Shown here piece after piece: positions 3,217 through 62,969 of a DNA stretch of 64,000 bases. The translations under genes were made by a program, and so were the position numbers. The notes under the pieces were generated by a model. It had not been told where the DNA came from and made no database searches. It saw only the letters and a program-made list of their open reading frames with translations. Numbering within the stretch: the first letter of the stretch is position 1; every line of letters starts with the position of its first letter. The stretch is from Eledone cirrhosa (Eukaryota): contig OZ024762.1 of assembly GCA_964016885.1 (NCBI GenBank), forward strand, positions 17,112,001 through 17,176,000. The letters are read 5' to 3'.

Positions 3217-3479
3217 CAAGCAAATTATAAACGTAAACATGTAAGTATGTTTTTGAAACAGTGCGCGAGTTTGAAATTAGAAATTAGAAATTATAAGCTT
3301 TCACCGTATTTTAGACTAAAGAAATTTCTAGCCTGATAGTGGGGTTTATAACCCTCGGAGAAATGGAAAAAGATGAGTGTTGACGGCAGCACTCATCTTT
3401 TTCCATTTCTCCGAGGGTTATAAACTCCACTATCAGGCTAGAAATTTCTTTAGTCTAAAATACGGTGAAAGCTTATAAT
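3217..3479. mobile_element. Fold-back element with ~93-bp arms (3290-3479) plus tail to (TA)n
   Basis: Near-perfect inverted repeat with a tiny loop at ~3383-3387; same asymmetric design as the ribozyme-bearing fold-backs, but no canonical core found. Confidence 0.75.
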
Positions 3480-8551: not shown

Positions 8552-8997
8552 TATAAAGTGCAAGGCAAGGGGTTATAATTCACTTCATTTATTCATAGTC
8601 GCTGTTATATATATTTCAGTGATAACTGTTATGTAATAGTTATGACCTCATCAGACAGCTAGGAGCTGAATAGACAAAACAGACCAATGTCACTGGTGCT
8701 TTGAGAAAGCAGTACCTGGGATATATCAATGAATTGAAACAACAAAAGTAAGTTTTATTTCTTTATGTTTTTTTTGGGTTTTTTCTGTTCAACTTCCAGC
8801 TTTTTTTATAAAAAAAAAAATATATATATATATATATTGTAATTTATTGTCGGAAATATACCAGTTATTTGTAATATTGATGTGTGAGTGTCTGTGTCGG
8901 TGAAATATAAACATATGCATCAAGTTCGAACACAAAGGAACCAAATTCCCACTGTCACTGCCCAAGTGAATTATAACCTGTTACCTTGCACTTTATA
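8552..8997. mobile_element. Element with ~34-bp terminal inverted repeats
   Basis: TATAAAGTGCAAGGCAAGGGGTTATAATTCACTT (8552-8585) versus AAGTGAATTATAACCTGTTACCTTGCACTTTATA (8964-8997). Confidence 0.6.
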
Positions 8998-24375: not shown

Positions 24376-24563
24376 AAGTTTATCCCGGGTTCAATCAGGG
24401 GTAACCACAGTAAGTAAGGTACTCAATACAAAGCAAAGTATAAATATTTAATATAGAAACGGCTTCTACAGGACTAGAACTGTTTCATTCGGGAGAAATC
24501 TTCAGGGCTTCCTGATGATTTCTCACGAATGAAACAGTTCTAGTCCTGTAGAAGCTTTTCTAT
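24376..24563. mobile_element. PLE-like family P2 fold-back with a hammerhead core on each arm
   Basis: GCTTC CTGATGA TTTC-TCAC-GAAT GAAAC AG-TTCTAGTC-CT GTA GAAGC (24507-24555); mirrored at 24462-24506. Confidence 0.85.
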
Positions 24564-27670: not shown

Positions 27671-28974
27671 CAGGGTGGGGCATAATTCCTGTTACAAAGT
27701 TTTAAATCAATTTAAAAATACATTATGCTGCTAATATAACTAATATATTTGTATCAAATCCATGCACTATAACCATATTAACTATTTTTGAGAACATTAC
27801 GCCATTAACAATTTGCAATGTCCATAGAATTGAAAAGAAAGTTTATAATAGTGAAGCATGAAAAAGGCCTGACTCCACCCGAGATATTTAAACTGGGGAA
27901 AATTCTTAAGATCAATAGAATGTTGATCAAAAGGACAATCGATCGATTTAAGGAAACTTCCTCGACCAAAGACAGACCTCAATCCGGACGCCCTCGCACC
28001 TCAAGAAAATCAAAACTCATTAAAAGTGTGAGGGAAAAAATAAAGCATAATCCAAGAAGGTCCATGAGAAAAATGGCAGAAGAAGCAGAAACATCGCCGA
28101 GAACTATGCGGATGATATGTCGAGATGATCTGGGGATGTCACCCTATAAGTTCCAAAAGAGGCAGCTTCTTTCTGCAGCCTCAATTGAAAAGAGGCTCTC
28201 CAGAAGTAAACTGTTATTGAACCGTATCAAGGATGACACGCTGCAAAACATCATCTTTACAGATGAGAAGTTATTCACTGTGCAGCAGTCTCACCATCAT
28301 CAAAATGATGGAGTACTTGCAAAAAGTTTCAAATCAATTCCTTCAAGTGTAGGAAAAGTGTTCAGAACACAGAAACCAGCACCAGTGATGCTTTGGGCAG
28401 CCATTTCTGAAAGAGGGAAGTCTCCTCTGATTTTTGTGCCTCAAGGAGTTAAAATTAACAAAGAACTTTGTATAAAGGATATTTTGGAAGGAGCACTGAT
28501 GCCATGGTGCGTATCTGTTTATGGCGATGACATGTGGACTCTCCAACAAGATGGAGCAACGAGCCACACTGCTCGCGTAACACAATAGTGGTGTAGAGAC
28601 CATTGTCCTGCATGGATCAGTAAGAAGAGTGGCCTCCCACATCACCAGATCTCAACACTCTCAATTTTTCTTTATGGTCAATTCTTGAGAGTGAAGCCTG
28701 CTCTACTCCTAGCCAAAATATTGAAACTCTAAAATCAAAACTGAATAAAGTATTGGGAGAAAATACCCATGGAAACTGTTCGTGCAGCCATCGAAGACTT
28801 TCCTAGAAGTCTTCGAGCAATAGTGAGAGCTAGGGGAAAGCATTTCGAATAAATTTTTGTGCAGTTATTTAATAGTATATTACTTACTATTTGTTGAAGT
28901 CAGATCTTGAAATAAATGTTTTTTTCAAGAACTATTTGCATTTTATTTTGTAACAGTTTTTATGCCCCACCCTG
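27671..28974 (+). mobile_element. Full-length Tc1/mariner DD37D (maT) transposon
   Basis: TA flanks; TIR CAGGGTGGGGCATAA..CTGTTACAAA / TTTGTAACAG..TTATGCCCCACCCTG; 1304 bp. Confidence 0.95.
27818..28852 (+). pseudogene. DD37D transposase, disabled
   Basis: SGRPR, IIFTDEKLF, QQDGATSH, WPPTSPDLNTLNF; 37-residue spacing to the third catalytic position (D to N); stop at 28586-28588 and later frameshifts. Confidence 0.9.
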
Positions 28975-47702: not shown

Positions 47703-48114
47703 GATATTAAATAAATGGAAACTATATTTATAAAACCATATTTATTTCATTATATATATTTCAGGGATATCATATTAACAATATGCTATGCCTTCCTCAG
47801 ACAAAATACAATATAGACAGTTTTATAGATAAATAGATTTGACATACCGTCAACTTTTCAAATACAAGTCGATGTTGAACGGTATGTCAAATCTATTTAT
47901 CTATAAAACTGTCTATATTGTATTTTGTCTGAGGAAGGCATAGCATATTGTTAATATGATATCCCTGAAATATATATAATGAAATAAATATGGTTTTATA
48001 AATATAGTTTCCATTTATTTAATATCGTAAATATACTCCAAATACTTGTCGAGTGCTTTTATATCAGTTATAAATATTTACTAGTTGTAACCCAACAATT
48101 TTAAATATAACTTT

Positions 48115-48189: not shown

Positions 48190-48591
48190 GGAGGTGAGTT
48201 TTATTGTAGTACAATAAAGCAATGCAGATATCAGATAAGAAGCACTCTACAGTTTGTAGGACTGGAGTATACATAATATAAGATCAAAAGATGGTTAAAG
48301 GAGTTCCATGTATTTTATTATGCGCATTTCAAAAACAAACATCATCATGCAATAATATTTGTGTTTTCATCAGATAAAACAGGAGAACATGAGATGAGGG
48401 CTAAAAAACACTTGTGGATAGTGCAGTTGATTTAAAACTGAACTATCCACAAGTGTTTTTTAGCCTTCATATCATGTTCTCCTGTTTTATCTGATGAAAA
48501 CACAAATATTATTGCATGATGATGTTTGTTTTTGAAATGCGCATAATAAAATACATGGAACTCCTTTAACCATCTTTTGATCTTATATTAT
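48188..48591. mobile_element. PLE-like fold-back with ~155-bp arms and two hammerheads
   Basis: GTTTTAT CTGATGA [long stem II] GAAAT GCGC ATA ATAAAAT at 48484-48552, mirrored at 48312-48380; tail 48188-48273. Confidence 0.9.
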
Positions 48592-54063: not shown

Positions 54064-54265
54064 GGAAATTGTTTAACCCCGACGGCAGAGCTCAAGCTGT
54101 TTCGACGGCTATTTCTGGACGCCGACTGAGTCCAGAAATAGCCGTCGAAACGGATTGAACTCTGCCGTCGGGGTAAACATTTTCCTATTACCACTCTACT
54201 ACTGTAAGTATTAAGTACTCTGGTGCGTGCGTTATGGTCCATCTGGTCCTTACCACACTTCCTTC

Positions 54266-59234: not shown

Positions 59235-59381
59235 CTTAAATTTAGGTTTAATCAATATACATATAAAATAAGTATCGATAATGTATCTCAATAAAAGCTC
59301 AATAAACTTCTCTGTGTGTGTGTGTGTGTGTATATATAAGTATATCTATCTATATATATATATCTATATATTAGATAGATA

Positions 59382-59413
<32 letters not shown>

Positions 59414-59480
59414 CATATATATACATATGTATATATATATATATATATATACATATATATACATATATATATATATATAC

Positions 59481-59551
<71 letters not shown>

Positions 59552-59572
59552 TACATACATCTATATATATAC

Positions 59573-59643
<71 letters not shown>

Positions 59644-59682
59644 CATATATACATACATATATACATATACATATATATATAT

Positions 59683-59889
59683 AAGTTTTAATATAGAAGA
59701 GATTCTACAGGACTAGAACTGTTTCATTCTTTAGAAATCATCAGGAATCTCTGAGATTCCTGATGATTTCTAAAGAATGAAACAGTTCTAGTCCTGTAGA
59801 ATCTCTTCTATATTAAAACTTTTATACTCTGCTATGTATTGAGTACCTTACTTACTGTGGTTACCTCCGATTCAACCCGGAATAACGTA
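59683..59889. mobile_element. P2 perfect palindrome with two complete hammerheads
   Basis: GAGATTC CTGATGA TTTCT-AA-AGAAT GAAAC AG-TTCTAGTC-CT GTA GAATCTC at 59753-59805, mirrored on the minus strand; palindrome 59683-59821. Confidence 0.9.
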
Positions 59890-59890
59890 C

Positions 59891-60148
<258 letters not shown>

Positions 60149-60303
60149 ATATATATATATGTATCTATGTCTGGCTGTATATATATTTACATAAGTATAA
60201 AAAACTTAAGGACCTACCGAAGATCCTAGGATTTGTCCCTATTCCTGGTTCCATCTTCCCTCGACGTTAAACGTGAGTACAACAGTTCTCTGAATGGACC
60301 GCA

Positions 60304-62516: not shown

Positions 62517-62727
62517 CGTAGGTCCCGGGTTGAGTCGGGATAACCACAGTAAGTAAGGTACTCAATACATGGCAGAGTAAACATTTTTTATTTTATAGAA
62601 GGAGCTTCTACAGGACTAGTACTGTTTCATTCAGATGAAATCTTCAGGAAGCTGGGTGTCTTACCCAGCTTCCTGAAGATTTCATCTGAATGAAACAGTA
62701 CTAGTCCTGTAGAAGCTCCTTCTATAA

Positions 62728-62730
<3 letters not shown>
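62517..62730. mobile_element. P2 fold-back with two complete hammerheads
   Basis: AGCTTC CTGAAGA TTTCA-TC-TGAAT GAAAC AG-TACTAGTC-CT GTA GAAGCT at 62667-62717; perfect arms 62590-62657 and 62663-62730. Confidence 0.9.
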
Positions 62731-62765
<35 letters not shown>

Positions 62766-62840: not shown

Positions 62841-62966
62841 GGAGGAGGTTATAGTTCACTTGAAGCATTGTGTAATGAGGTATAAACGTTTGAATATGTA
62901 TAATAAAGCCAAAACAATGCAGGTTTGGACATACCTGCATTGTTTTGGCTTTATTATACATATTCA

Positions 62967-62969
<3 letters not shown>
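62841..62969. mobile_element. Short fold-back with tail, in (TA)n
   Basis: Arms 62888-62924 and 62933-62969. Confidence 0.7.

What the first reader, a model, noticed from the sequence alone, without database searches (positions are those of the whole stretch)
59683..59889. Family P2: perfect palindromes with a ribozyme on both strands and stem I covariation
Seen: three copies (24376, 59683, 62517) fold back just upstream of the ribozyme, so transcription from either strand contains a hammerhead. Stem I covaries between copies (GCTTC/GAAGC at 24507 and 62668 versus GATTC/GAATC at 59755). Stem II loops vary while pairing is kept (TCAC, AA, TC), and the variable core position alternates (CTGATGA/CTGAAGA). 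Inference: selection on RNA structure in the source elements. A read-through transcript could switch between a rod-like dsRNA and the active ribozyme fold, as viroid-like RNAs do.
Basis: partly seen in the sequence, partly recalled or inferred. Interest (0 to 1): 0.8.

Follow-up and report, generated by a model that had tools for sequence, protein, structure and literature searches.

The report
Penelope-like retrotransposon stubs with hammerhead ribozyme
These palindromes are short leftover copies of a known kind of animal retrotransposon (Hydra-clade Penelope-like element) whose ribozyme-bearing end was likely copied twice, head to head, when it inserted, so the ribozyme on both strands is probably a by-product of insertion and not a viroid-like switch.

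Summary
The hammerhead motif is real. Two of the three copies (59683, 62517) are perfect palindromes with 69-bp arms and a full ribozyme on each strand; the 24376 copy is not.

They are 5'-end stubs of a Hydra-clade Penelope-like retrotransposon inserted in (TA)n. A 24-nt core occurs 33,479 times in the genome. Longer copies run into an RT + GIY-YIG ORF that has the Hydra motifs. Inverted 5' copies, and hammerheads on both strands, are already published for this clade.

In parents a TATA box lies about 30 nt before ribozyme stem I, and fold points pile up at that base. Arms end at two fixed internal sites. The short arm reaches further 5' than the long arm in about half the copies. Gapped inversions and lone short arms exist. 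This favours two target-primed cDNAs, each run to the RNA's 5' end and joined, over simple snap-back (about 60:30).

Stem I covariation is real but rests on two events. The rod/ribozyme switch is not supported: the hairpin wins by about 76 kcal/mol, the antisense arm is transcribed first, and the stubs lack the promoter.

The parts
59683..59751 (-). Short inverted arm of the subfamily-A copy; holds a full hammerhead on the - strand (cut at 59706); its outer end merges with the (TA)n flank about 60-66 nt past core C3
   Evidence: L001
59752..59752 (.). One-base centre of the palindrome; lies at the inferred 5' end of the element RNA (stem I start, -6/-7 from core C3)
   Evidence: inference
59753..59805 (+). 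Type I hammerhead motif on the long arm: 7-bp stem I, CTGATGA, U-U plus 3-bp stem II, GAAA, 4-bp stem III with 8-nt loop, predicted cut after 59798
   Evidence: architecture matches Hydra hammerheads
59806..59889 (+). AT-rich second end site, then the one-sided extension ('tail') with a terminal hairpin at 59860-59886 and the fixed 3' end, which in parents lies about 50 nt before the ORF ATG
   Evidence: (L213)
59330..59682 (.). (TA)n-rich target microsatellite, left flank (left edge approximate)
59890..60160 (.). (TA)n-rich target microsatellite, right flank (right edge approximate)
62517..62662 (-). Long arm of the subfamily-B copy (hammerhead 62603-62653, cut at 62609; tail and 3' end towards 62517)
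   Evidence: L031
62663..62731 (+). Short inverted arm of the subfamily-B copy (hammerhead 62667-62717, cut after 62711)
24376..24505 (-). Long arm of the older subfamily-C copy; its hammerhead lacks the 5' strand of stem I
   Evidence: L061
24506..24565 (+). Short inverted arm of the subfamily-C copy; holds the complete hammerhead (cut after 24550); differs from the long arm at several positions

Best explanation
These are short, promoter-less copies of the ribozyme-bearing end repeat (pLTR) of a Hydra-clade Penelope-like retrotransposon sitting in (TA)n, and the palindrome likely forms at insertion when both nicked target strands prime reverse transcription of the element RNA and the two cDNAs are joined head to head. 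Shown: the stubs are co-linear with the pLTR of ORF-bearing elements. Parents carry a TATA box about 30 nt before stem I. Arms end at two internal sites (about +53 to +66 and about +125 to +130 from core C3). The two arms of a young copy share their variants. Inferred: transcription starts at the first base of stem I. The encoded GIY-YIG endonuclease nicks both strands of (TA)n. One strand primes at the distal site (long arm with tail) and the other at the AT-rich proximal site (short arm). Both cDNAs run on uncleaved RNA to its 5' end and are joined bluntly or by 1-8 nt of microhomology. Because both start sites lie only 60-135 nt from the RNA's 5' end, most products are stubs; full-length copies need read-through RNA with a second pLTR. 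The ribozyme would act in the parent RNA (untested), not in the stubs. Odds: element identity about 0.95; dual priming as the route about 0.6.
For: Parent. L093 is pLTR(hammerhead)-ORF-pLTR(hammerhead) with a 4,251-nt unit. L161 has TATA, hammerhead, tail and an ORF of 814 codons from the ATG. L213 links the finding's own subfamily to the same kind of ORF.

Hydra motifs. RIRWR, DKT, CxCx5C, and CxxC and CxH beside the conserved E and N are present; there is no cysteine pair before YIG.

Ends. 98 of 125 tail-bearing ribozyme instances meet (TA)n at +125-134, and 74 of 102 tail-less ones at +50-69.

5' limit. In 30 subfamily-B loci chosen by their 3' part only, 26 had an inverted arm by script (28 with two read by eye). 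The furthest 5' point was -6 to -3 in 15 of 26, exactly -6 in 6, -7 to -12 in none and at the cut site in none. The TATA box starts at -35/-36 in 47 of 55 instances that have one.

Symmetry. The short arm reaches further 5' in 12 copies, the long arm in 12, with 2 ties. Exact mirror-image junctions recur in subfamilies B and C.

Gapped inversions. In L174, L175 and L212 the long arm stops before the part that the short arm holds. Lone short arms occur at L142, L144, L149 and L177. An inverted arm holding most of the ORF beside a short direct arm occurs at L091.

Arm concordance. 22 of 22 at two polymorphic sites in subfamily A; permutation p = 1e-4.

Precedent. The Poseidon protein cuts and extends both strands, starts at two internal sites that bound the tail, and uses uncleaved RNA (PMC11167929).
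Against: No RNA data: the transcription start is inferred from a TATA box and a pile-up of ends only. In subfamily B, -6 is also the start of a self-complementary 4-mer that could seed snap-back. Mirror-image junctions with microhomology are also what asymmetric central deletions of a perfect palindrome would give (recalled from work on long palindromes). Identical variants in both arms require the same RNA, or the same source locus, to be copied twice over a 60-nt overlap, which is simpler under snap-back. In the Poseidon assay the RT start did not differ between top and bottom strands. Samples are small (30 loci per search), and most were ranked by likeness to the window's copies. In subfamily B the concordance test was marginal (p = 0.049) because junction columns entered it and variants are few. 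Pfam found no family in two ORF copies, and clade membership was judged by motifs, not by a tree.
Confidence: 0.62

Rival explanations
1. Same element, different route: one target-primed cDNA reaches the RNA's 5' end, folds back and primes its own second strand up to the AT-rich site, which anneals to the other target end. Later asymmetric central deletions or spacer flips of the perfect palindrome create the mirror-image and gapped forms.
For: It explains within-copy arm identity directly (22 of 22). Perfect palindromes with 0-5 nt loops exist (L001, L122, L123). Many junctions have 1-8 nt of microhomology that fits slippage. Self-priming has been proposed in print for PLE palindromic junctions, on an antisense template (PMC3846280, passages).
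Against: It needs secondary rearrangement in about half of copies that are 98-100% identical to each other, while perfect 69-bp palindromes persist beside them. It needs one-sided deletions reaching beyond the palindrome for L174, L175 and L212, loss of the whole long arm for lone short arms, and a multi-kb one-sided loss for L091.
Confidence: 0.28
2. The palindromic unit is itself a selected, viroid- or retrozyme-like RNA that is transcribed, switches between rod and ribozyme folds, circularises and is re-inserted as a unit.
For: Both strands of 59683 and 62517 carry a complete motif. Some junctions recur in several copies. Animal retrozymes with type I hammerheads make circular RNAs (PMC7229834, passages).
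Against: Junctions and outer ends vary widely among near-identical copies. Both arms reach stem I in only 7 of 26. The hairpin is favoured by about 76 kcal/mol. The antisense arm precedes the ribozyme on either strand. The stubs have no promoter. There are no regular short tandem arrays: 5 of 221 loci show two same-strand cores within 1 kb, at irregular spacing, and the one inspected (L110) is two separate palindromes.
Confidence: 0.04
3. The palindromes are sequencing or assembly fold-back artefacts.
For: Fold-back chimeras occur in long-read data (general knowledge).
Against: Arms of older copies have diverged from each other (2.35 mismatches per 43 nt in subfamily C). Outer ends fall at element-specific sites. 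The arrangement is published for PLEs. Opposite-strand joints at the stem I position appear in contigs of 2 of 3 public runs, one sample, possibly the source sample.
Confidence: 0.01

Closest known systems
Hydra clade of Penelope-like elements (Craig et al. 2021, PMC8557442), e.g. Penelope-13_HM, Penelope-1_NV, Hydra-1_Obim
   Same: Single ORF with RT and C-terminal GIY-YIG; RWK-like motif, DKT, CxCx5C linker, CxxC and CxH; (TA)n target; type I hammerhead with U-U at the base of stem II and, in some families, an ACAG/CTGT stem III cutting after GTA. Penelope-13_HM is listed with a 5'-truncated inverted copy and a hammerhead on both strands.
   Different: Unit of 4.25 kb in L093 against generally under 3 kb (long low-complexity 3' region); 8-nt loop III against 0-3 nt; the hammerhead sequence differs from every listed family, including Hydra-1_Obim; tens of thousands of stubs.
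Poseidon element PAc of Anolis (Frangieh et al. 2024, PMC11167929)
   Same: Two internal end sites that bound a one-sided tail; an AT-rich target; a stem-loop at the distal site; copies made from uncleaved RNA.
   Different: Other clade. The tail here is about 65 nt, against 30-40, and lies wholly before the ORF. The PAc ribozyme overlaps the start codon; here it lies about 130 nt upstream of it. PAc starts without homology to the target; here both ends show TA microhomology. That paper does not derive the inverted copy from the two start sites (section 3 read whole).
Non-LTR retrozymes of animals (PMC7229834; bioRxiv 10.64898/2026.07.22.740005)
   Same: Short non-coding units with a type I hammerhead, related to PLE pLTRs; a U-U stem II base as in axolotl HHR_Amex2.
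   Different: Retrozymes are head-to-tail tandems with two or more same-strand ribozymes that release circles. These are single, head-to-head, promoter-less stubs.
L1 twin priming
   Same: The second target strand primes internally on the RNA and yields a 5' inversion.
   Different: L1 inversions have little overlap. Here about 60 nt are usually duplicated, giving a palindrome.

Membership tests
Penelope-like element, EN+ | Single ORF with RT and GIY-YIG endonuclease | tested here: met
   L161: ORF of 814 codons with YRDD and VY..YIG. Pfam gave 0 families for two copies, but homologues carry PF01541 and PF26215.
Penelope-like element, EN+ | Partial tandem forming pLTRs, each with a hammerhead | tested here: met
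   L093: two hammerhead repeats 4,251 nt apart around the ORF.
Penelope-like element, EN+ | Inverted 5'-truncated copy and one-sided tail | tested here: met
   26 of 30 sampled copies by script, 28 with two read by eye; tail on one arm only.
Hydra clade | RWK motif and DKT in place of DKG | tested here: met
   RIRWR and DKT in L158 and L161. The first is RWR, not RWK.
Hydra clade | CxCx5C linker; CxxC and CxH beside E and N; no CCHH | tested here: met
   CNCPDKTTC, CDLC, CMH; a single cysteine between VY and YIG.
Hydra clade | (TA)n insertion preference | tested here: met
   Flanks of the window copies and of fetched loci.
Hydra clade | Length generally under 3 kb | tested here: not met
   4.25-kb unit in L093. 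The paper gives this as a tendency, and one listed family is 3,045 bp.
Hydra clade | RT phylogeny groups with named Hydra families | not tested
   No named Hydra protein was held as a session sequence; homologues are unnamed.
Type I hammerhead ribozyme | Conserved core and three stems | tested here: met
   U-U replaces the usual first pair of stem II, as in most Hydra motifs. Rfam 0 hits. The ribozyme fold lies 1.0-3.4 kcal/mol above the predicted minimum.
Type I hammerhead ribozyme | Self-cleavage after NUH | not testable with these tools
   Needs an assay or RNA reads.
Non-LTR retrozyme | Head-to-tail tandem units, each with a hammerhead | tested here: not met
   Window copies are single; 5 of 221 loci have same-strand cores within 1 kb, irregularly spaced.
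Viroid-like RNA | Circular RNA with ribozymes in both polarities that replicates as RNA | not testable with these tools
   The DNA anatomy argues against it; RNA could not be examined.

The most novel reading that the evidence does not exclude
This family records how Penelope-like elements make their long-unexplained inverted 5' copies: a dimeric enzyme primes reverse transcription from both target strands at two internal RNA sites, both cDNAs run to a TATA-defined RNA 5' end that is the first base of the hammerhead's stem I, and the ribozyme therefore sits where it would clip the cap off the parent RNA. Some 33,000 arms give a natural atlas on which to test this.
Probability: 0.45. Interest if true: 0.55.

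Novelty: new member of a known kind. Interest (0 to 1): 0.3.

Why it matters
As an object it is ordinary: stubs of a described retrotransposon clade, with a described ribozyme and a described inverted arrangement. Its value is as test material. How PLEs form inverted copies, and what their hammerheads do, are stated open questions (PMC8557442, passages). This genome holds tens of thousands of short, young products whose two start sites, 5' limit and junctions can all be read within about 200 bp. If the inferred start site is right, the ribozyme begins at the first transcribed base, which points to decapping or turnover of the element RNA rather than to circle formation.

Tried and rejected
Rfam at gathering score: 0 matches. 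Pfam on two ORF copies: 0 families.

Three DNA searches of the own genome returned nothing because the first look skips common words; these are not evidence of rarity. As a result I have no 3'-only, unbiased sample for subfamily A, and the 47743 family was not followed up.

Sequencing runs: no RNA holder listed. The contigs laid come from one sample, possibly the source; their depth is not a copy number and was not used as one.

My first inverted-repeat script missed most arms because BLAST merged the palindromes; its counts were dropped and redone. One alignment row (L207) was cut 6 nt off register and gave no stem I cells.

Early ideas dropped: a Nematis-clade parent (the motifs fit Hydra); a SINE-like element with a fixed 5' end (long parents exist); cleaved RNA as the template (no 5' limit at the cut site in 26 copies).

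The pattern, meant to find other stem I pairings, returned mutated or truncated copies and no new subfamily among the 30 loci read. Earlier notes of this scan: none for this genome. The paper search for the U-U pair found nothing. No paper naming twin priming for Penelope elements came up (listings only; most subscription papers are not held). No structure or complex was predicted.

Full report
Observation. The window is G000:C23:17112001-17176000 of a 3.0-Gb, microsatellite-rich genome; the host was not identified. A motif scan finds a type I hammerhead at + 59753-59805 and on the opposite strand, at + 62667-62717 and - 62603-62653, and at + 24504-24558 only. Two exact palindromes with 69-bp arms are present, at 59683-59821 and 62589-62731. 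The 24376 copy is not exact: its arms differ at several positions and its - strand ribozyme has no 5' stem I strand. Rfam has no match at gathering score. The isolated motifs do not fold better than shuffles in a convincing way, and the ribozyme fold lies 1.0-3.4 kcal/mol above the predicted minimum. Positions below count from the first C of the core (C3 = 0); the predicted cut is after +38.

Abundance and layout. A 24-nt core occurs 17,897 + 15,582 times in the genome, control 0. Searches with each window copy gave 752, 934 and 2,389 candidates, of which 40 were scored each. Each insertion has a long arm with a fixed 3' end running into (TA)n and, usually, a shorter inverted arm on its 5' side. 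Among 227 distinct ribozyme instances in all fetched loci, 98 of 125 with the 3' extension meet (TA)n at +125-134 (26 have no such run in range, 1 earlier), and 74 of 102 without it do so at +50-69. The three window copies belong to three subfamilies: A (59683), B (62517) and C (24376, older, copies about 95% alike).

Parent. Subfamily-B loci extend far upstream. Nine were fetched at 10 kb. L093 is a partial tandem: repeat with hammerhead, ORF, long low-complexity 3' region, repeat with hammerhead, then (TA)n; the unit is 4,251 nt. In the inner repeat the sequence runs past the usual 3' end into an ATG about 50 nt on. L161 has an ORF of 814 codons from that ATG. L213 shows the same junction for subfamily A, with a frameshifted ORF of the same kind. 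The protein has RIRWR, DKT, YRDD, a CxCx5C linker, a C-terminal VY..YIG nuclease without a cysteine pair, and CxxC and CxH motifs. These are the diagnostics of the Hydra clade (PMC8557442, section 11 read whole). Its supplement lists Hydra hammerheads with the same U-U stem II base, several with the same stem III and GTA cut, and Penelope-13_HM with an inverted 5' copy and a hammerhead on both strands (part 2 of 59 read). Cervera and De la Pena also report hammerhead pairs on opposite strands (PMC4209133, part 1 of 4 read). Pfam scored nothing on two copies. There are 1,432 database homologues among 8,000 scored, about 700 aa and 37-51% identical among those listed. No tree was built.

Why the fold lies just before the ribozyme. 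Copies that keep native upstream sequence have a TATA box, starting at -35/-36 in 47 of the 55 instances that have one. Some of those loci were selected for TATA or for upstream sequence, but those were not and show it too. That places a polymerase II start near -6 (general knowledge of TATA spacing), the first base of the 6-bp stem I. In 30 subfamily-B loci picked by their 3' part only, 26 had an inverted arm by script. The furthest 5' point of either arm was -6 in 6, -5 to -3 in 9, -7 to -12 in none, further upstream in 6 and further downstream in 5, and none began at the cut site. I infer that the template is uncleaved RNA that begins at stem I. This is not shown by RNA data.

How the inverted arm forms. 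The two arms of a copy share variants: in 22 of 30 subfamily-A loci with both arms, both polymorphic sites agree in all 22 (minor alleles in 4 and 3 copies), 0.27 against 0.92 mismatches per 43 nt, p = 1e-4. Subfamily C gives 2.35 against 3.50 (p = 1e-4) and B 1.38 against 1.49 (p = 0.049). Junctions vary among near-identical copies, so the arm is made at each insertion from the same source. A cDNA that folds back cannot copy more than it holds. Yet the short arm reaches further 5' than the long arm in 12 of 26 copies (long arm 12, ties 2; two more short-arm cases by eye), exact mirror-image junctions recur, three loci have a long arm that stops before the part held by the short arm, four are lone short arms between microsatellites (these were picked out by eye, not counted against a total), and L091 has most of the ORF in the inverted arm. 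The simplest reading is that both target strands prime on RNA, one at about +128 beside a small hairpin and one at the AT-rich +53 to +66 stretch, and that the two cDNAs are joined. The Poseidon protein cuts and extends both strands, starts at two internal sites that bound the tail, uses uncleaved RNA and is predicted to be a dimer (PMC11167929, section 3 read whole), but that paper found no strand difference in start site and does not derive the inverted copy. The rival is snap-back followed by asymmetric central deletion. It explains arm identity more simply and cannot be excluded by junction shape; self-priming was proposed for PLE palindromes in PMC3846280 (passages). I put the odds at about 60:30.

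Covariation. Recurrent stem I variants are AGATTC/GAATCT (63 instances), AGCTTC/GAAGCT (59) and GGCTTC/GAAGCC (12): two compensatory changes. On 8 distinct sequences, 99% of cells pair; 2 of 500 shuffles reach that value, but 115 of 500 reach two covarying pairs, and stems II and III never vary. This agrees with selection in the parents and is too thin for a formal claim.

The switch idea. For the 59683 copy the hairpin folds at -120.3 kcal/mol against -44.5 with the ribozyme enforced. On either strand the complement is transcribed first. The stubs lack the promoter, only 7 of 26 have both arms reaching stem I, and one transcript has one sense ribozyme, so it cannot release a unit for circularisation as tandem retrozymes do (PMC7229834, passages; bioRxiv 10.64898/2026.07.22.740005, part 1 of 5). 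Read-through RNA would be a plain dsRNA hairpin.

Verdict. New family of a known clade, in a known arrangement. Searches for a printed dual-priming account of PLE inversions and for this family returned none, but only open-access text was searched, mostly as listings, and the supplements of the Poseidon paper were not read and may bear on this. Interest 0.3, carried by the junction data as a way to test an open mechanism.

Noticed in passing
window 47743-47986 and 48311-48553; 8601-8659 (-): Two further head-to-head hammerhead palindromes of other sequence (long stem II, very short stem III) and one single motif, beside (TA)n. Probably stubs of other Penelope-like families; one genome search returned nothing because common words are skipped.
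   Followed up: partly
G000, e.g. C3:86347857-86348747 and C9:16943150-16944040: A second, larger Hydra-like family, 80-86% identical in protein, with many open frames of 758 codons, among the 131 scored of 41,723 candidates. Whether it is the parent of subfamily A was not tested.
   Followed up: no
window 59838-59861 and the equivalent part of all subfamilies: The tail holds a motif that is nearly invariant across subfamilies; its antisense strand reads like two overlapping 5' splice sites (likeness recalled, not tested). Unexplained; it may be the protein-binding site.
   Followed up: no
window 59782-59795, 62695-62708: Loop III is 8 nt and contains a self-complementary CTAG or ACTAGT, longer than in listed Hydra ribozymes; it could pair two ribozymes into a dimer (co-fold).
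   Followed up: partly
L110:1085-1212: A palindrome whose two arms both end at the proximal site, without a tail, 326 nt from an ordinary long/short palindrome.
   Followed up: partly
L008, L011, L106, L115 junctions: Junctions carry 18-38 nt re-copied from the ribozyme region, suggesting template jumps or slippage at the join.
   Followed up: no
L192, L197, L198, L199, L205, L215: One decayed ribozyme fragment with identical flanks recurs 6 times among the first 30 matches on C1: carried inside another repeat or a segmental duplication.
   Followed up: no
window 27809-28588 (+): Open frame of 259 codons that looks like a Tc1/mariner transposase fragment (label recalled).
   Followed up: no
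window 3344-3425, 54099-54151, 62888-62969: Exact hairpins with 22-37 bp arms and no hammerhead motif; the first two extend as longer imperfect palindromes.
   Followed up: no
L097:7532-9999: ORF pieces of another Penelope-like element with DKG and YLDD motifs near a Hydra copy (label recalled).
   Followed up: no
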